Source of the DNA: a virus
Lineage: Duplodnaviria > Caudoviricetes
Reading direction: 5' to 3' (one strand)
Length of the DNA stretch: 64,000 nucleotides
Virus record (IMG/VR): IMGVR_UViG_3300032050_000002
The first letter of the stretch is position 1, and each line of letters begins with the position of its first letter. Both the position numbers and the translations under genes were made by a program. Below the pieces are notes generated by a model. That model saw nothing but the letters and a program-made list of their open reading frames with translations. It was not told the origin of the DNA and did no database searches. Below, piece after piece: positions 4,769 through 56,625 of the stretch.

Positions 4769-4903
4769 TTAACGACCTTGACCTCTGTATGATTTTGGTT
4801 TCTGTTCTTTTGGTCCGTAATGTTTTTTTAATTTACCAACTTTCTTTTTACCGAAAGAAATTTTAGTTGATTTAGTTGTTCCTTTTGACTTAGTTGTTGC
4901 CAT
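4769..4903 (-). CDS. 44-aa highly basic protein ending YRGQGR (missed by ORF track)
   Basis: Manual translation: MATTKSKGTTKSTKISFGKKKVGKLKKHYGPKEQKPKSYRGQGR*; TATTTAT motif upstream on the same strand (4929-4923). Confidence 0.75.
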   Translation of the reverse strand: MATTKSKGTTKSTKISFGKKKVGKLKKHYGPKEQKPKSYRGQGR

Positions 4904-5017
4904 AATTTATATATTTTTTAATATAAATATATTGAAATAAAAAAGGGGATAGTAGCGAACTTCCCCTTTTTCTGTTATCGTAACGATAACGGTCCTAAAA
5001 GTCCTCAGTTAAGAGGA

Positions 5018-29776: not shown

Positions 29777-29974
29777 CATAAATAATTGACATATTGAAAA
29801 ACTCAATTATATTTATGATTGTTGACTTCGTGGGTTTTAAGTGGAAGTCACCCAATAAAAGATAGATACAGAAATGGGACTATCAACAAATTACCCTTTG
29901 ACACCTACCTAAACGGTAGGTTTTTTTATTTAAAAAAATTTGGTAAATTCAAAAAAAGTTCGTATCTTTGTATT

Positions 29975-31039
29975 ATGTTAGAGACTCTAAATAGATACTT
30001 TGAAGACGGACTTCTGTATAAACAGACTCACCCTACTCTTCCTTTAACTATATGGAATTACACCGAGAAAGTTCAATACGAGAACTTATGGGATGAAATA
30101 ACCATACAGACCAGAGGTTTGGTAACTGATGATAAGGGAAATATAGTTGCTAGACCTTTTAAAAAGTTTTTCAATTTAGAGGAAAAAAAACATACCGCAA
30201 CCCCTTACTTTGAAGTTTTCGATAAAATGGATGGTTCATTGGGGATATTGTTTAATTATGAGGGAGAATGGATAATGGCAACCAGAGGTTCATTCACCTC
30301 AGACCAAGCGGTTAAAGGATTTGAGTTACTTCAAAAATACGACTATAAAAGATTGGTTAAAGGTTTTACCTACCTATTTGAGATAATATACCCTGAGAAC
30401 AGAATAGTTGTTAATTATGGTTATGAGGATTTAATATTGTTATCTGTAATAGATAATAAAGATGGTTATGAATTAAAGATATTTGATGATTCTATCCATA
30501 TAGAAGGTATAAGATTAAGAAACCTATATAACAATTTAGGGTTTAAATTGGTTAAAAAATACGATGGTATAAAAGACTATAACACCTTAAAAAATATGGT
30601 TAAAGACAATGAAGAAGGTTTTGTGGTTAGGTTTTCAAATGGGGAAAGGGTCAAAATAAAAGGTGAAGAATATATAAGACTTCACAAAATAATGACCAAT
30701 GTATCAACCACCGGTATATGGGAAATATTAAGTACCGGTGGAAACTTTGAGGAAATACTTAAAGATGTTCCTGATGAGTTCTACAATAAAATAAAGGACT
30801 ACGAAAAAGAGTTGAGGTATCAATACTTTTCAATATCAGAATACTGCGGTAAATTACATGACGGATTTAGATATGGTAAATACGGTGATAAAGAAGAACC
30901 CACCAAAAAGGAATACGCTGAATTTGTTATGAAAAACGTAAAACCCGAATTCAGACCTATAATGTTTTTTATGTGGGATAAAAAGAATTATGACCAGATA
31001 ATATGGAAACTCATAAGACCCGAATTTAAAAAACTATAA
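29975..31039 (+). CDS. T4 Rnl1-like RNA ligase
   Basis: RGLVTD, RPFKKFFN, DKMDGSLG (KxDG), TYLFEII, EEGFVV, VKIK; start reassigned to the ATG after the -7 element. Confidence 0.9.
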   Translation: MLETLNRYFEDGLLYKQTHPTLPLTIWNYTEKVQYENLWDEITIQTRGLVTDDKGNIVARPFKKFFNLEEKKHTATPYFEVFDKMDGSLGILFNYEGEWIMATRGSFTSDQAVKGFELLQKYDYKRLVKGFTYLFEIIYPENRIVVNYGYEDLILLSVIDNKDGYELKIFDDSIHIEGIRLRNLYNNLGFKLVKKYDGIKDYNTLKNMVKDNEEGFVVRFSNGERVKIKGEEYIRLHKIMTNVSTTGIWEILSTGGNFEEILKDVPDEFYNKIKDYEKELRYQYFSISEYCGKLHDGFRYGKYGDKEEPTKKEYAEFVMKNVKPEFRPIMFFMWDKKNYDQIIWKLIRPEFKKL

Positions 31040-33100: not shown

Positions 33101-33666
33101 AATTTAAACATCCTGTAGATACAATGTCTATTGAAAATTTATTACAAAATAAAATAAAATACAATTCACTAAAAGGGACAAAAGTAGTGATGCCTTATAA
33201 AGGTACAATCAAAGATTTTGATTCTAATACTTGTAACGGAAAATTAGAAATTAAACATAAAATAGACGGAAAAAAATATACTTCTGTTTTGTGTGGAGTT
33301 GAATCTGTATCAAAAAGTAGTTCAGAATTATCTGAGGGTGAAGAAATTGCGGAAATGTCAGGAAACAATCTTATTTGGATGTTAGTTGACCAAGCGGGAG
33401 ATACTCAAAATATTTATGATATTTTTAAAGACAAAGATGATAAAAATAGTGAGGAAAATAAATCAAAGGAAAATAAATCAAAAGAAAACAAATCTGTAAA
33501 ACAATCAAAAGATTATGGTTTTAAAGCCGACCCAATAACAAAAAGATTAATTGATTTAACTACAACACCTTTAAAATTAGTAAATAAATTCTTAGGTGAC
33601 AATAAAAACAAAGATGAAGATAAATTGACTGAAGAAATAAATAGAATTAAACAATTACTAAAATAA
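33097..33666 (+). CDS. Degenerate M23-like (duplicated hybrid motif) protein
   Basis: HPVD...VVMPYKGTI...CNGKLEIKH...YTSVLCGV...EGEEIA fits the fold pattern but lacks the HxxxD/HxH metal ligands. Confidence 0.45.
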   Translation: MKFKHPVDTMSIENLLQNKIKYNSLKGTKVVMPYKGTIKDFDSNTCNGKLEIKHKIDGKKYTSVLCGVESVSKSSSELSEGEEIAEMSGNNLIWMLVDQAGDTQNIYDIFKDKDDKNSEENKSKENKSKENKSVKQSKDYGFKADPITKRLIDLTTTPLKLVNKFLGDNKNKDEDKLTEEINRIKQLLK

Positions 33667-33692
33667 AAAAATCCCCTTTTAGGGGATTTTTT
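33666..33692. terminator. Bidirectional intrinsic terminator
   Basis: AAAAAATCCCC-TTTTA-GGGGATTTTTT. Confidence 0.8.
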
Positions 33693-33716
33693 GTTTCTAA
33701 TAGACACGTTTCTCTA

Positions 33717-33896
33717 TTACTTTACTTCTTTTGTTGAGTCCGCCGCAACAACAGTTGCGGTGTCAACAGGTTTAACTGAATTAGTGTCAACCACAACTAC
33801 CGCAGTTGAATCTGTTTTAGGAGCCTCTGACTCACCACCTCCACAAGAAGTTAACGTTACCGTTAAAATTGCTAATACTAAAATTACTTTTTTCAT
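33717..33896 (-). CDS. 59-aa Bacteroidota-type lipoprotein (real ORF is opposite the + ORF listed in the track)
   Basis: Manual translation MKKVILVLAILTVTLTSCGGGESEAPKTDSTAVVVVDTNSVKPVDTATVVAADSTKEVK*; lipobox LTS/C. Confidence 0.8.
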   Translation of the reverse strand: MKKVILVLAILTVTLTSCGGGESEAPKTDSTAVVVVDTNSVKPVDTATVVAADSTKEVK

Positions 33897-33992
33897 TTTT
33901 TAAATTATTGTTTATTTCGTTTAATAAATAGTTGATTAAACCCGATAAGTCAACAAAATTTAATTTTTATTTTAAAAAATTTTATTTTTTTC

Positions 33993-34387
33993 TTGTTAAT
34001 TAAGATTTTTTTATTACCTTTGTAAAACATTTGAGGAAAGGTTAATATTTATAGTTTCTCGAATGAAAAAAAAAGTTTGAGAAAAATTTGGTAAATTAAA
34101 AAATTCTTCTTATCTTTGTAAAACAAATCGGGAATGTCCGATTAGTTCTTTGAAAAAAAAGTTTTAGAAAAATTTGGTAAATCCAAAAATAATTCTTACC
34201 TTTGTAAAAGAAAATCGGAGTAAAAAACTGATAGATTCTTTGAAAAAGAAGTTTAAGAAAAGTTTGACAGAACAGAAAATTTTTCTTAACTTTGTAAAGA
34301 GTTTGAAAGTGGGAATGAGGTCATAAAGATTCCTTACTTAGTAAGGTTATAAAGGTTCCTCACCACAATCAACTCGGTTCTTTGAAA
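33993..34387 (+). promoter_or_regulatory. Four tandem Bacteroidota sigma-A promoters with three hairpin + boxA-like elements
   Basis: -7 TAnnTTTG at 34015, 34111, 34197, 34287; -33 TTTG at 34087, 34173, 34263 (20-nt spacers); (G/A)TTCTTTGAAA at 34145, 34235, 34377. Confidence 0.85.
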
Positions 34388-34394
34388 TATTGAA

Positions 34395-35247
34395 TTATCC
34401 ATTCAGTCCTCGATTATGAGACCTTCGGGTTGATTATGAGGGGATACTGATAAATGATAATCGGCCGTATATGGTCGTTAAATAAACTACGAAAGTAGGA
34501 TAAAGTGGGGTCACCTGTGTTAGTGATTCTGCGGCTCGGGAAACTGAGCTCGAGTATACAAGTGGGATATCATCCGACCTTTAGTACTGAGGGCAACGCT
34601 TTAGGGAAAGTGGTTTGGTGACCGAGCAATGTGGATTGTTAGGTTGAGTTCGGAAGAACAATAAGAATAACTCATAGGAATCCTGTAAAAGGTGTGGTTA
34701 TCCGACCATATTATTGCGGTTTCCAATTTAAAAGTGGACTTAAAACCGAAAGGTAAGATGGAGAACGAGTGGTGTCGCTACCGTCCTTATTAACGACCCG
34801 CCAAGGTTGTGATATGAAGTAAACTTAAAGAATGGAGATGGGGACATTTCACGGAGTAGTTTGGCATTCAGTTGTTCAAAAGATGACTGAACCTAAGGCA
34901 GACCACTACTTCGATTAATCCACGACACGTACTTAAATAAACTAAAAATTTGTTCAAAGGAAAAGTGTCTGTCAGGTATCGATGAAAGGTGACTACATAG
35001 TAATGAGTCGTTCATTGCACACGAAGACCCCAAGTCTGAATGTAATCTTACCAAAAACCTCTAGTTCCGCAAGAACGAGTTGGGGAGGCATCCTCGAAGA
35101 GAGTTGAGTAATAAGAGAGTAATTGATACCTCAAGGAGTGGTTTACCTAAATAACCGTCACTGAGGAATACTTTCCAAAAAAAAGTGGAAATGTGAGGAA
35201 CTAATAATCTCACTAAAGGTTCTCAAGTAATGGTGTATTCTCAGCCA
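34395..35247 (+). ncRNA. Large (~850 nt) ornate structured RNA, GOLLD-like
   Basis: No credible ORF, raised GC, many UUCG/GNRA-capped hairpins (34421-30, 34487-98, 34514-29, 34745-54), long-range AGTGGT(34768)/ACCACT(34902), size, tRNA adjacency and a 3' end (GTATTCTCAG) resembling my recollection of GOLLD. Boundaries approximate. Confidence 0.7.
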
Positions 35248-35265
35248 TGATTTAACAAAAAATAG

Positions 35266-35340
35266 TGCGGGTCAGAGAAATGGTAACTCGTTAGGCTCAT
35301 AACCTAAAGACGGATGGTTCGATTCCATCACCCGCTACCA
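35266..35340 (+). tRNA. tRNA-Met (CAT), initiator-like, CCA encoded
   Basis: GCGGGT/ACCCGC acceptor with unpaired U1:U72, A11:U24, TTAGG-CTCATAA-CCTAA anticodon arm, GATGG-TTCGATT-CCATC T arm, ACCA end. Confidence 0.92.
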
Positions 35341-35400
35341 AGTGACTCCAATAGAAAGTGTTTGACTTTAACACTAAACGATAATGAGTTTAAACTTTTC

Positions 35401-35740
35401 ATCCAAAAACATAAGTTCGGTTGTTATATTGTGTGTTTTATAGTTTTTGTTGTTCACGATTTCATCCTGTGTAAGGAAAAAATGAATACAAAAAAACTGA
35501 TGTTGAGTCCTAAATACACGACTCACCCGTCTAAAGGAAAAAAACTGTACGAAACCGATTTTTTAGGGTGTGGTAGTTTGTGATAACCACAAGGTCTTCA
35601 GGTGATTCAAGAAAGACCGAAAACACACAAACGTAAATTGGTTTAACCAACGTCACAACTCACGTAAGTAGTTACAATATGGTTCACTCACCATAATAGT
35701 AAGGTTTAAAAGTTATCCTTGTGAAAGAAACTTATGGCTT
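35401..35740 (+). ncRNA. Unclassified ~330-nt multi-stem RNA candidate
   Basis: Long-range stems 35410-17/35729-36 and 35429-39/35620-30, possible pseudoknot 35417-22/35553-58, and at least six local hairpins. Confidence 0.65.
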
Positions 35741-35742
35741 AG

Positions 35743-35787
35743 AAGGGAGATATCGATTTAGCCAACGATGTCTCCCTTTTTTATTTT
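35743..35787 (+). terminator. Intrinsic terminator closing the ncRNA cluster
   Basis: AAGGGAGATATCG...CGATGTCTCCCTT followed by a T-run. Confidence 0.85.
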
Positions 35788-35812
35788 GTACTTTTTCATA
35801 TATTTATTTAAT

Positions 35813-36415
35813 ATGAGAAATTTCTTTTTTTATATTCTTTTTAGTTTATCACTATTAAAATCATTTTCTCAATGTAGCGGTAATTTAACTTTTACTTTAA
35901 CTCCATCCCCACCAGTCGGTGGTTATACTCCAGGAACAACAGTTAATGTCTGTGTTACTTTACAAAGTTTTACTCAAACAGGAAGTAATTGGTTTGAAGG
36001 TTTTGATATTAATTTAGGTTCAGGTTGGACTAATGTTACTCCGGTATCATCACCCGCAAATTGTGGTGGAAATAGTACTGGTGGTCAATGGTTATGGATG
36101 ACATCAGTAACATCAGACGCGACCCCATCAGTTACCGTGGGACCCGGATATTTTTTTGATAGAAATAGTGATGGAAATCCTGGAAATGATTATGGTGATA
36201 GTAATGGTTCAAATTGTACTTGGACTATGTGTTTTAGTGTTAGGGTTTCTCAAAATTGTATTCCTCAAAATTTATTAATAGAAGTGGCTGCGGCTGCTGA
36301 CGGAGTTTGGGGTAGTTACACAAGTACAGCATGTGATAATGTTAATTACGTTAATATATACACAGGAACAAGTAGCGCAACTCCTGTTGTTTTAGGTGCT
36401 ATAAGTCATAATTAA
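35813..36415 (+). CDS. Secreted beta-rich protein, C-terminus LGAISHN
   Basis: Bacteroidota-type signal peptide ending SFSQ/C; paired Cys; start reassigned to MRNFF. Confidence 0.75.
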   Translation: MRNFFFYILFSLSLLKSFSQCSGNLTFTLTPSPPVGGYTPGTTVNVCVTLQSFTQTGSNWFEGFDINLGSGWTNVTPVSSPANCGGNSTGGQWLWMTSVTSDATPSVTVGPGYFFDRNSDGNPGNDYGDSNGSNCTWTMCFSVRVSQNCIPQNLLIEVAAAADGVWGSYTSTACDNVNYVNIYTGTSSATPVVLGAISHN

Positions 36416-36426
36416 AAAATAAAAAA

Positions 36427-36996
36427 ATGAAAAAGTTACTCTTAATTCTATTCACAATGTTAACCACAATATCTTTTGCTCAGTTAACAACTAATAACCC
36501 TGATACAATTTGTCCCAATGCTACGGGCTCAATTTATCAAGTCCCATCGTTAGGTGCTGGGTTTAATTATACTTGGACTGTAGTATCTCCAGGAACAATA
36601 ACCGCAGGTGCTGGAACAAATCAAATTACGGTTAATTGGGGTTCATTACCCGCAGGATTAAATACAAACGCGGTAAGTGTAATTGCGACTAATACTGTTA
36701 CAGGATGTCAAAGTCAACCCGTTAATCTAAATGTGTTTGTATTAACATTAACACCGACAATTACTTCAATAGGACCTTTTTGTCAAGGAGCTCCTTGTGT
36801 TAATTTAGTTGGAACTCCGTCAGGTGGTTTATTTAGTGGAACAGGTGTAGTGAGTAATCAATTCTGTCCTACAACAAGTGGAGTAGGTTCTTTTACTGTT
36901 ACTTACACTGTAACTCAAAATGGTTGTAACTTTAGTACATCAACAACAGTTGTTGTTGGTCAAAACCCTGTATTAGCTCCAATACAACATAATTAA
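36427..36996 (+). CDS. Secreted PKD/Ig-like domain protein, C-terminus LAPIQHN
   Basis: Signal peptide ending SFA/Q; YTWTVVSPGTITAGAGTNQITVNW; GTPSGGLFSGTGV...FCP...VTYT. Confidence 0.8.
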   Translation: MKKLLLILFTMLTTISFAQLTTNNPDTICPNATGSIYQVPSLGAGFNYTWTVVSPGTITAGAGTNQITVNWGSLPAGLNTNAVSVIATNTVTGCQSQPVNLNVFVLTLTPTITSIGPFCQGAPCVNLVGTPSGGLFSGTGVVSNQFCPTTSGVGSFTVTYTVTQNGCNFSTSTTVVVGQNPVLAPIQHN

Positions 36997-36997
36997 A

Positions 36998-37567
36998 ATG
37001 AAAAAATTATTCTATATATTTTGTTTTTTATTTCCTTTGTTTGGTTATACACAACAAGTAGTAGAATTGTGTGATGACGGACAAACAACATTTACTTATA
37101 GTTCCCCCCAAAGATTATCAGGTGTTAATGTTTGGACTTTAAATCCTGGTACAGGTAGTAGTGATGTTTTTGTTAATGAGTTTAGATATACTTGGACTGA
37201 AATAGGCGAATATAAATTAAGATTAATTTTTATAACAAATACTGGATGTTATGATAGTACTTTTTATACAATAAAAGTAATTCCTTGTACTCAAACATTT
37301 ATGTGGTTTCCAAATGCTTTTACCCCTACTGGAGATGTTGAAAATGAAACATGGTCACCCAAAGGAATTAATTATACCGACTTACAATATTCAATTTATA
37401 ATAGATGGGGTGAATTAGTTTTTAATTCTAATTCTGAAGATAAACCTTGGGACGGTACATTAAATAATAAACCTTGTCAAACAGATGTTTATATTTTTGT
37501 TTGTTTTTGGAAGGGGATAGACAAACGTAATTACAAAAAATACGGTCATATTAGTTTAATTAGATAA
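36998..37567 (+). CDS. T9SS type-B sorting (gliding-motility-associated CHU_C) domain protein
   Basis: FPNAFTPTGD..NETW, IYNRWGELVF, WDGT, DVYIF, GHISLIR. Confidence 0.9.
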   Translation: MKKLFYIFCFLFPLFGYTQQVVELCDDGQTTFTYSSPQRLSGVNVWTLNPGTGSSDVFVNEFRYTWTEIGEYKLRLIFITNTGCYDSTFYTIKVIPCTQTFMWFPNAFTPTGDVENETWSPKGINYTDLQYSIYNRWGELVFNSNSEDKPWDGTLNNKPCQTDVYIFVCFWKGIDKRNYKKYGHISLIR

Positions 37568-37963: not shown

Positions 37964-38350
37964 TGGTGGAGATATTGGGAGTCGAACCCAAGTGCTAAAC
38001 ATCCCAAGTATTAAGGACTACATGCTTAGGATAAAGTTTTCTAACTTTCCAAAAATAGTTAATTCGTTCTTCACCATCGTAAATTAACAACCAATGAATG
38101 ACTCGATTTAGGGTTCAGTCATTTTTCCACCTCTATTTAGACTCCTGTTTCTAGGTTATATGTCCACCGACCCAATTGTGTGACTTAATCTAATTAAGCC
38201 ACAGCTACTTCTTCAGTACGAATTAATCCTACAGAAGTAAGTTTGTTGATTACGTTGCCGTATATCGATTTGAATCAGTTTTAACAAGGTTAACTCAGCC
38301 TTGACATGCCCCGAATAGTTGATTATGCTAGTCGATACCATTTTATCCCC
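37964..38350 (-). ncRNA. ssrA: tmRNA, tag (A)GNVINKLTSVGLIRTEEVAVA*
   Basis: 5' GGGGATAAAATGGTATCGAC; 3' GGGTTCGACTCCC...CTCCACCA tRNA-Ala-like domain; resume codon GGC after ATATAC; tag ORF 38259-38194. Confidence 0.95.
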
Positions 38351-38354
38351 ATAA

Positions 38355-38406
38355 TGTTAAAGAACTTTCTGAATACAAATATACAACAAAAACTTGAAAT
38401 AACAAA
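38355..38406 (-). promoter_or_regulatory. tmRNA promoter (TTTG-N19-TATATTTG) followed by boxA GTTCTTTAACA
   Basis: Minus strand: -33 at 38406-03, -7 at 38383-76, boxA at 38365-55. Confidence 0.8.
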
Positions 38407-55723: not shown

Positions 55724-56440
55724 ATGAAATTTGGTATTATAAAATCAAAAATAGAAAAAGTATTATTAGAATCTTACTCTAATAACACATTTAAAGACGA
55801 AATTAAAAACTTTAATTATTTAGTTTTAGCAAATAAAAATTTAAGTAAACTATATTACTTGTATGATGAATTAAACTCCAACAAAGGATTAAATGAATCT
55901 GTTGCGAAAGACTATATTAACGAGTCAATTAAAATTTACGAAAATACCTTAAATAAAATAACTGAATCAGATTTAAAAAAATTAAATATTTGGTTATCTG
56001 ATGTTAAATGTAACAACATTTATGAACACGTTGATAACGTTTTTAATTTAGATGTGTTAAACATAGAATCAAATATCAAAGCAAAAAAAGTTGTTACTGA
56101 GTCATTAAAAAGAACTCCTATTAAAAAACAAGAACCTGTTAATATTCCTATTAGTGCAATGGTTAAGGTCGCAAACAAAACAATCTCAAACTACGTAGAG
56201 AATTTAAATGAGTCTGAAAAACAAGAATTAACAAGACTTCTTAAAGAAGACGACAAAGATTTAAAGTTAAAATTTCAATTAGTTAAAGAAAGTCTTTTGA
56301 CAAAATTAGAGAATATGAAATCATCTGAATCGGACGTAACAATTCATTCAAGAATAGATGAAACATTAACAAAAGTTTCTTCAGAAAAATACGACAAGTT
56401 AACTTACTTTAAGTTAAAGAATTTAAACGAAAATCTTTAA
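55724..56440 (+). CDS. Hypothetical head-module protein
   Basis: ORF track; follows portal. Confidence 0.65.
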   Translation: MKFGIIKSKIEKVLLESYSNNTFKDEIKNFNYLVLANKNLSKLYYLYDELNSNKGLNESVAKDYINESIKIYENTLNKITESDLKKLNIWLSDVKCNNIYEHVDNVFNLDVLNIESNIKAKKVVTESLKRTPIKKQEPVNIPISAMVKVANKTISNYVENLNESEKQELTRLLKEDDKDLKLKFQLVKESLLTKLENMKSSESDVTIHSRIDETLTKVSSEKYDKLTYFKLKNLNENL

Positions 56441-56625
56441 TTTGATTTAAACTTTTTTTGAACGTAAATTGCCTTCTTTAGAGAGTCCCTGTCCTTTACG
56501 GATTTTTTGGTGTACTCTTTTCTCTCAATCAATTCAGATTGTTGTCTTGTCTTAATAATCTTACTTTTGTAAATCTTCAGAGCTTTTTCAAGCGACATAT
56601 TTTTATCTAATTTTACAATAATCAT
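56437..56625 (-). CDS. rpsU: Phage-encoded ribosomal protein bS21
   Basis: MIIVKLDKNMSLEKALKIYKSKIIKT...LIERKEYTKKSV..R..LKKAIYVQ aligns by eye with Bacteroidota bS21 (IDRALKRYK.K..KT...KPSV..R...KA.Y.Q); location in the head module matches described bS21 phages. Confidence 0.85.
   Translation of the reverse strand: MIIVKLDKNMSLEKALKIYKSKIIKTRQQSELIERKEYTKKSVKDRDSLKKAIYVQKKFKSN

What the first reader, a model, noticed from the sequence alone, without database searches (positions are those of the whole stretch)
34395..35247. GOLLD-like giant RNA in a Bacteroidota jumbo phage
Seen: ~850 nt of non-coding, hairpin-dense sequence next to a tRNA. Known: GOLLD RNAs are ~800-nt phage-associated, tRNA-adjacent RNAs of unknown function, reported to form large oligomeric assemblies. 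Inference: this is a member or sister family; its co-occurrence with bS21, tmRNA and initiator-like tRNA points to a role around translation.
Basis: partly seen in the sequence, partly recalled or inferred. Interest (0 to 1): 0.6.

Follow-up and report, generated by a model that had tools for sequence, protein, structure and literature searches.

The report
GOLLD cage RNA in lake phage
This 850-base gene-free stretch is a full-length copy of GOLLD, a known giant phage RNA that assembles into hollow cages, found here in a large freshwater phage of Bacteroidota; the identification is solid, but it is an ordinary member of a known family whose function is still unknown.

Summary
Window 34852-35247(+) matches the whole Rfam GOLLD model (RF02032) at 317.7 bits against a cut-off of 150, E 4e-90. 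That model covers only the conserved 3' half. The 5' half (34457-34851) is homologous to the cap domain of GOLLD env-38, the RNA whose 14-mer cage was solved by cryo-EM. Across 12 relatives it folds into 20 helices with strong covariation: 95% of cells paired against about 40% in slid controls.

Three or four tandem Bacteroidota-type promoters precede the gene. An initiator-like tRNA-Met lies 18 nt downstream, followed by a further non-coding stretch and a strong terminator.

The surrounding genome is a T4-like jumbo phage with Bacteroidota host signatures.

This is a member of the family, not a sister family. The "role around translation" remains inference. The scan has noted GOLLD many times on other DNA.

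What this locus adds is a complete genomic and operon context for an env-38-type GOLLD. Interest is modest.

The parts
33971..34303 (+). Array of four ~90-nt direct repeats. Each carries a Bacteroidota-type promoter (TTTG-N20-TAnnTTTG); copies 2-4 match exactly, at 34087-34118, 34173-34204 and 34263-34294, and copy 1 is degenerate.
   Evidence: Repeat family D1. Motif hits and enrichment of 23 against 5.9 expected in the window. The -7 element TAnnTTTGTAAAR lies once or twice upstream of GOLLD in 16 of 18 related loci.
34304..34394 (+). Leader between the last promoter and the structured RNA. It ends in the motif GTTCTTTGAAA, which also closes each repeat unit.
   Evidence: Sequence. The same promoter, leader hairpin and GTTCTTTGAAAA arrangement occurs in L008, L010 and L018.
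34395..34461 (+). 5' hairpin of the GOLLD transcript. Its outer stem is conserved and its loop holds an inserted hairpin found only here and in L009. It may be P1 of the published numbering; this was not verified.
   Evidence: Folds of the window and of L008. Alignment A2.
34457..34851 (+). GOLLD 5' domain, the 'cap' domain of the env-38 cage. It contains the GAAA loop at 34491-34494, GAGGGCAAC at 34589-34597, the GGAA loop at 34652-34655, the AUCC loop at 34700-34703, the L11a-like GAAA at 34748-34751 and the GGGA loop at 34841-34844.
   Evidence: 75-77% identity to 13 IMG/VR loci and 64-65% to two huge phages. 71% identity to the first 150 nt of env-38. Covariation.
34852..35247 (+). GOLLD conserved 3' domain, which is the whole Rfam RF02032 model. 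It includes the CAAAAG loop at 34877-34882, the L21a loop CCGCAAG at 35067-35073, the L21b loop AGGCA at 35086-35090 and the A-rich loop at 35177-35184.
   Evidence: 317.7 bits, E 3.9e-90, model 1-416.
34911..34965 (+). Short A/U-rich variable linker (J13/15). It contains no embedded tRNA.
   Evidence: Gapped, low-conservation stretch of the Rfam alignment and of A2. ARAGORN finds no tRNA there.
34974..34983 (+). 5' strand of the conserved 10-bp pseudoknot.
   Evidence: Rfam structure line; all ten pairs form with 35122-35131. Compensatory changes in A2 columns 783-792 / 932-941.
35122..35131 (+). 3' strand of the pseudoknot.
35266..35340 (+). tRNA-Met (CAT) with a U1.U72 mismatch, A11:U24 and an encoded CCA. 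It is initiator-like and sits 18 nt after GOLLD.
   Evidence: ARAGORN and Rfam. Alignment with the GOLLD-linked tRNA-Met genes of L004 and L001.
35341..35740 (+). Non-coding trailing stretch in the same promoter-to-terminator unit. It is the subject of another finding of this scan.
   Evidence: No real ORF. Conserved in L004 (62% over 383 nt, tRNA included) and L003 (66% over 123 nt). Note e1-5339396.
35741..35786 (+). Intrinsic terminator: a 15-bp stem followed by a U-run.
   Evidence: dG -21.3 kcal/mol, z -5.56, 0 of 200 shuffles as stable.

Best explanation
This is a genuine, full-length GOLLD RNA gene with the env-38-type architecture, carried by a T4-like jumbo phage of freshwater Bacteroidota. 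Shown: it is a member of the family. Both domains are conserved and covary. All the helices that distinguish the 14-mer-forming env-38 from the 12-mer-forming streptococcal GOLLD (P11a-c, P21a and P21b) have counterparts here. Most sequence motifs that form inter-subunit bridges in the cryo-EM structure are kept. Inferred: host sigma-A RNA polymerase transcribes it from three or four tandem promoters as one precursor, GOLLD, tRNA-Met and a trailing RNA, ending at the terminator at 35741-35786. RNase P cleavage at the tRNA's 5' end frees the GOLLD 3' end. The ~790-850-nt RNA then self-assembles without protein into a D7 14-mer hollow cage, like env-38. The biological role is not known for any GOLLD. 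My best guess (about 30%) is that during infection the cage holds or scaffolds a translation-related cargo, such as tRNA, the co-transcribed RNA or a ribosomal particle.
For: Rfam RF02032 full-length hit at 317.7 bits against a cut-off of 150; nothing else in the region. The 5' half has 20 helices, is 95.3% paired, and has 46 compensatory pairs against 11-18 in slid controls. It is 71% identical to the env-38 cap domain. Bridge motifs listed in Suppl. Table 2 of PMC12286853 have local counterparts: B1 GAAA, B2 GAGGG..AAC, B3 GGAA, B6 CAAAAG, B8 CCGCAAG, B9 GC-containing loop, and B10 A-rich loop. L001 and L002 carry GUCGAAAC at L21a, the GC-to-CG palindrome switch the paper reports (paper text). 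Tandem promoters. Terminator. tRNA-Met lies directly 3' of GOLLD in the window, L004, L006 and L009, and 5' of it in L001 and env-38. Phage genes: terminase, portal, major head protein. Relatives are 195-229-kb contigs judged 65-76% complete.
Against: There are no expression data for this locus. The B4 kissing loop can form only 3 Watson-Crick pairs here (GGA/UCC), against 5 in env-38, so the cage stoichiometry could differ. The bridge residues were mapped by local motif context only, because the PDF-derived env-38 text has lost a few letters and its numbering drifts by 1-4 nt. The single-sequence MFE z-score is only -1.63. Nothing here bears directly on the function.
Confidence: 0.9

Rival explanations
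1. GOLLD here serves mainly as a covalently linked carrier or 'storage' scaffold for the adjacent initiator-like tRNA-Met. It would control when that tRNA is processed and released, rather than acting as a free cage.
For: tRNA-Met abuts GOLLD (10-18 nt away) in the window, L004, L006 and L009, and lies just upstream in L001 and env-38. The literature proposes 'inhibited storage' for tRNAs embedded in the GOLLD linker (PMC12990946).
Against: Seven of the twelve closest relatives have no tRNA next to GOLLD. Here the tRNA is outside the GOLLD fold, not in the inward-facing linker. A normal 5' leader of 18 nt should be accessible to RNase P.
Confidence: 0.15
2. The cage acts as a decoy or sponge against a host factor, for example a nuclease or a defence sensor that recognises structured or phage RNA, and has nothing to do with translation.
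For: Very strong expression signals, namely tandem host-type promoters. GOLLD is confined to phages and prophages, and its expression is reported to rise during lysis (PMC12286853).
Against: No defence or anti-defence genes were identified next to it. The recurrent neighbours are tRNA, tmRNA and an RNA ligase.
Confidence: 0.1
3. It is a sister family or another class of large RNA (group I/II intron, rRNA fragment, ROOL) that only resembles GOLLD.
For: None found.
Against: The score is twice the GOLLD gathering threshold over the whole model. No other Rfam family reaches E = 5 in 33600-36000. The 5' half is homologous to env-38.
Confidence: 0.01
4. It is a decaying, non-functional GOLLD relic.
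For: No expression data.
Against: Nearly all model pairs are intact and the 10-bp pseudoknot is perfect. Compensatory substitutions occur across relatives. The promoters and terminator are intact.
Confidence: 0.02

Closest known systems
GOLLD env-38 (marine metagenome; cryo-EM 14-mer nanocage, PDB 9MEE; Kretsch et al., Nature 2025, PMC12286853)
   Same: Same two-domain architecture. The 5' cap domain is recognisably homologous (71% over the first 150 nt). Counterparts of P11a-c, L11a GAAA, L21a and L21b are present. The A-minor and GNRA bridge loops are kept. tRNA-Met is adjacent.
   Different: About 790 nt from the equivalent start, against 833 nt. The linker is shorter. There is an extra 5' hairpin (34395-34461). 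The B4 kissing loop is reduced to 3 bp. tRNA-Met lies downstream rather than upstream. This copy has a complete genome and operon context (promoters, terminator, host phylum); for env-38 I saw only the short source-scaffold coordinates (1239-410) and an upstream tRNA-Met.
Streptococcus agalactiae GOLLD (12-mer; PDB 9L0R; reviewed in PMC12990946)
   Same: Same family and the same conserved 3' domain.
   Different: The streptococcal RNA lacks P9, P11a-c and P21b and forms a dodecamer. The window RNA has these elements, so a 14-mer is the better prediction (inference).
Mycobacterial and mycobacteriophage GOLLD inside tRNA arrays (Morgado 2020; PMC6582537)
   Same: Phage-derived and embedded among tRNA genes.
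   Different: Those carry a tRNA or pseudo-tRNA inside the J13/15 linker. Here the linker is 55 nt and has none, and the tRNA lies outside the fold.
ROOL RNA (octameric cage; phages and prophages near tRNA islands)
   Same: A large ornate phage RNA that forms an RNA-only cage next to tRNAs.
   Different: Unrelated sequence and secondary structure. No ROOL hit in the region even at E = 5.

Membership tests
GOLLD RNA (Rfam RF02032) | Covariance-model match above the curated gathering score over the whole model | tested here: met
   317.7 bits against 150, model 1-416/416, E 3.9e-90.
GOLLD RNA (Rfam RF02032) | Conserved 3'-domain helices, including the long-range pseudoknot | tested here: met
   All 10 pseudoknot pairs form (34974-34983 with 35122-35131). 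There are few non-canonical pairs in the alignment and compensatory changes in relatives.
GOLLD RNA (Rfam RF02032) | An additional ~400-nt ornate 5' domain, giving a total length of about 800 nt | tested here: met
   34457-34851 has 20 helices supported by covariation and is homologous to the env-38 5' domain. Total length is 791-853 nt.
GOLLD RNA (Rfam RF02032) | Located in a phage or prophage, close to tRNA genes | tested here: met
   Terminase, portal and major head protein are in the window. tRNA-Met is 18 nt downstream.
GOLLD RNA, env-38 subtype | Presence of P11a-c and both L21a and L21b hairpins (elements absent from the 12-mer streptococcal form) | tested here: met
   Helices 16-19, with the GAAA loop at 34748-34751. 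Both L21 hairpins are aligned. The criterion comes from PMC12990946.
GOLLD RNA, env-38 subtype | Conservation of the inter-subunit bridge motifs B1-B10 | tested here: inconclusive
   Seven motifs (B1, B2, B3, B6, B8, B9, B10) were found by local context. B4 is weakened to 3 bp. B5 and B7 were not mapped reliably, because the env-38 text is lossy.
GOLLD RNA | Protein-free homo-oligomeric cage formation | not testable with these tools
   Requires in-vitro transcription plus mass photometry or cryo-EM.
GOLLD RNA | Expression that rises during lytic growth | not testable with these tools
   No transcript data are available. Only promoters and a terminator were found.

The most novel reading that the evidence does not exclude
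The conserved unit of tandem strong promoters, GOLLD, initiator-like tRNA-Met and trailing structured RNA, with a convergent phage tmRNA 0.6-3.2 kb away in six loci, may be a functional module. In it the GOLLD cage would physically engage the co-transcribed RNAs or the initiator tRNA to redirect host translation initiation during infection by jumbo phages of Bacteroidota.
Probability: 0.12. Interest if true: 0.7.

Novelty: new member of a known kind. Interest (0 to 1): 0.3.

Why it matters
GOLLD is one of the largest bacterial or phage non-coding RNAs. Since 2025 it has been known to build RNA-only cages larger than a ribosome, yet no function is known.

For the cryo-EM model RNA env-38, the paper text and sequence table I read gave only coordinates on a short metagenomic scaffold and an upstream tRNA-Met. 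This locus places a close architectural twin in a complete setting:
- a defined host phylum;
- host-type tandem promoters and a terminator;
- fixed neighbours (initiator-like tRNA-Met and a trailing RNA);
- a phage that also encodes tmRNA, bS21 and an Rnl1-type RNA ligase.

That makes it a useful annotated example and narrows the functional hypotheses. It does not change what is known about the family.

Tried and rejected
1. Single-sequence folding energy: z = -1.63, not informative on its own.
2. An E-value-threshold Rfam scan of 33600-36000 for introns, rRNA or ROOL found nothing credible.
3. Searching the window's own genome is not possible, because none is held.
4. A DNA search of GenBank phages found the RNA only in two unannotated huge phages, LR745206 and LR756502.
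5. The cultured or named relatives by portal similarity lack GOLLD: Flavobacterium phage immuto, Microcystis phage Mel-JY01 and huge phage LR756508. No tractable cultured host-phage pair was found this way.
6. My regex hunt for bS21 failed. The gene was found only after a lead from another note and was then confirmed with Pfam.
7. RNAalifold proposed a long-range helix between the 5'-domain AAGUG (A2 columns 225-229) and the 3'-domain CACU (columns 968-972). I set it aside: its columns barely vary, I saw no matching complementary segment in the env-38 text, and the two domains fold separately in the cryo-EM structure.
8. Exact residue-by-residue mapping of the cryo-EM bridges was abandoned, because the PDF-derived env-38 sequence has lost letters.
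9. The consensus sigma-70 promoter scan is uninformative here (9 found against 7.9 expected). The Bacteroidota motif is the relevant one.

Full report
**Observation**

The stretch 33903-35768 has no ORF above 53 aa except one that overlaps the tRNA. G+C climbs from 0.19-0.33 in the flanks to 0.40-0.44 across 34350-35250. ARAGORN and Rfam place a tRNA-Met(CAT) at 35266-35340. The minimum-free-energy fold of 34395-35247 is only 1.6 sd better than shuffles, so hairpin density alone would not have been convincing.

**Identity**

A gathering-threshold scan of the whole window against Rfam 15 gives one hit to GOLLD (RF02032) at 34852-35247(+). It scores 317.7 bits against a cut-off of 150, with E 3.9e-90 and model positions 1-416 of 416. 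The 10-bp pseudoknot is intact (34974-34983 with 35122-35131). A permissive scan of 33600-36000 shows no other credible family: no intron, no rRNA, no ROOL.

**The 5' half**

The Rfam model covers only the conserved 3' domain, so the 5' half needed separate evidence.
- blastn finds both halves (34443-35245) at 75-77% identity in 13 IMG/VR loci. These were fetched with a 30-base motif (26 specified bases) from the 3' domain.
- Both halves also match at 64-65% in two unannotated huge phages, LR745206 (635 kb) and LR756502 (642 kb).
- Homology stops sharply at 35245 in all but one locus.
- On a 12-sequence alignment (A2), RNAalifold predicts 195 pairs, 83 of them with compensatory changes.
- For the 5' domain alone I counted 104 pairs in 20 helices. 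95.3% of cells pair, against 37-42% when partners are slid. 46 pairs have double changes, against 11-18. The covariation score is 0.361, against at most 0.108. No shuffle out of 500 reached the observed values.

**Relation to the solved structure**

The sequence of GOLLD env-38, the cryo-EM construct, is printed in Supplementary Table 4 of Kretsch et al. 2025 (PMC12286853). Its first 150 nt align to window 34457-34606 at 71% identity, with the same GAAA, GAGGG..AAC and stem pattern. By eye the similarity continues through the whole 5' domain. The window RNA is therefore of the env-38 type.

A 2026 review (PMC12990946) states that env-38 forms a 14-mer whereas the streptococcal GOLLD forms a 12-mer, and that the latter lacks P9, P11a-c and P21b. 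The window has counterparts of P11a (GAAA loop at 34748-34751), P11b and P11c (helices 16-19), and both L21 hairpins.

Using the bridge list in Supplementary Table 2, I located by local context the following motifs:
- the B1 GAAA loop (34491-34494);
- the B2 GAGGGCAAC motif (34589-34597);
- the B3 GGAA loop (34652-34655);
- the B6 CAAAAG loop (34877-34882);
- the B8 self-complementary GC in CCGCAAG (35069-35070);
- the B9 GC in AGGCA (35088-35089);
- the B10 A-rich loop (35177-35184).

L001 and L002 have GUCGAAAC at L21a. This is the GC-to-CG palindrome switch the paper uses as evidence for an intermolecular kissing loop.

The B4 kissing loop can make only three pairs here (GGGA at 34841-34844 with AUCC at 34700-34703), against five in env-38. 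B5 and B7 could not be mapped, because the PDF-derived text has lost letters. Cage formation is therefore a well-founded inference, not a result.

**Ends and expression signals**

In the window and in L009 its loop carries an inserted hairpin.

Upstream lie four direct repeats of about 90 nt (33971-34303). Copies 2-4 contain exact Bacteroidota promoter motifs of the form TTTG-N20-TAnnTTTG. That motif occurs 23 times in the window against 5.9 expected, mostly in front of genes and in front of the tmRNA. The -7 element followed by TAAAA lies once or twice upstream of GOLLD in 16 of 18 related loci. L008, L010 and L018 share the promoter, leader hairpin and GTTCTTTGAAAA arrangement. Tandem strong promoters feeding GOLLD are thus a clade feature, and this phage has the largest array seen.

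No terminator separates GOLLD from the tRNA. The unit ends at a 15-bp hairpin plus U-run at 35741-35786 (dG -21.3, z -5.6). I infer a single precursor and release of the GOLLD 3' end by RNase P cleavage of the tRNA leader. This rests on the established general activity of RNase P and was not tested.

**Neighbours**

tRNA-Met follows GOLLD by 10-18 nt in the window, L004, L006 and L009. It precedes GOLLD in L001 and, according to the paper, in env-38. The tRNAs of the window, L004 and L001 share a U1.U72 mismatch and A11:U24. Both are features of bacterial initiator tRNAs, by textbook knowledge. They have two rather than three G:C pairs at the bottom of the anticodon stem.

A tmRNA lies convergently 0.6-3.2 kb downstream in the window, L003, L004, L005, L006 and L009. 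The 400 nt between the tRNA and the terminator are conserved in L004 and L003. They are the subject of another report of this scan (e1-5339396), which I only partly re-tested.

**Genome**

The window encodes a large terminase, a T4 gp20-type portal, a major head protein, an endolysin and a ClpC/ClpB-type ATPase. It also encodes an Rnl1-type RNA ligase, a PKD protein and a protein with the Bacteroidota-specific T9SS C-terminal domain, and bS21 at 56437-56625(-).

The portal's best named relatives are Microcystis phage Mel-JY01 (41%) and Flavobacterium immuto phages (38%); neither carries GOLLD. GOLLD-bearing relatives are 195- and 229-kb contigs judged 65-76% complete. Notes on the same genome lie 78.7 kb before and 75.3 kb beyond this window, so the genome exceeds 200 kb. 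'Bacteroidota jumbo phage' is supported.

**Known or new**

GOLLD was described in 2009. It is curated in Rfam, is known from many phages and from Flavobacteriia-labelled contigs, is known to sit near tRNAs, and is known to form cages. The scan itself has met GOLLD often.

This is a new, unannotated member with a complete context, not a new kind. I found no paper that mentions the GOLLD-tmRNA linkage or the promoter arrays (searched three terms only). These are modest additions.

**Verdict**

The mechanism is cage assembly by homology, and the biological role is unresolved.

Noticed in passing
window 33971-34303: Four tandem ~90-nt repeats, each a host-type (Bacteroidota) promoter plus a short leader, all reading into GOLLD. 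Relatives have one or two copies. The layout resembles the multi-promoter arrangement of rRNA operons.
   Followed up: partly
window 35341-35740: About 400 nt of non-coding sequence between tRNA-Met and the terminator, in the same transcription unit as GOLLD. It is conserved at sequence level in L004 (62% over 383 nt including the tRNA) and L003 (66% over 123 nt), but not detectably by blastn in the other relatives.
   Followed up: partly
window 37964-38350(-); L003, L004, L005, L006, L009: A phage tmRNA lies convergently 0.6-3.2 kb downstream of GOLLD in six loci. The window copy has its own TTTG-N19-TAnnTTTG promoter at 38376-38406(-).
   Followed up: partly
window 35266-35340; L004 5483-5555(-); L001 2821-2894: The GOLLD-linked tRNA-Met genes share a U1.U72 mismatch and A11:U24 (initiator hallmarks) but only two G:C pairs at positions 30-31/39-40. 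The window copy encodes its CCA.
   Followed up: partly
window 29819-31039(+): T4 Rnl1-type RNA ligase (PF09511, 62.9 bits) 3.4 kb upstream of GOLLD. This enzyme family repairs cleaved tRNA anticodon loops in T4.
   Followed up: no
window 36427-37567(+): Two adjacent 189-aa phage proteins, one with a PKD-like domain and one with a CHU_C type IX secretion sorting domain. The latter is a Bacteroidota-specific export signal and is unexpected in a phage gene.
   Followed up: no
window 56437-56625(-): 62-aa ribosomal protein bS21 (PF01165, 29.5 bits against a cut-off of 27), antisense to the head-gene block.
   Followed up: partly
window 4769-4906(-): 45-aa very basic ORF (33% Lys+Arg) with no Pfam match. 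It lies next to the small RNA that another note reports at 4938-5017.
   Followed up: no
L002 3830-3903; L001 2394-2481: tRNA-shaped genes next to GOLLD in the two huge phages, for which ARAGORN reports abnormal two-base 'anticodons'. They are possibly non-decoding tRNA look-alikes of the kind other notes of this scan describe beside GOLLD.
   Followed up: no
window 33666-33692: Perfect 12-bp palindromic hairpin flanked by A- and T-runs (a bidirectional terminator). It ends the upstream gene block just before the GOLLD promoter array, and similar sequence recurs downstream of GOLLD in L013, L014 and L016.
   Followed up: no
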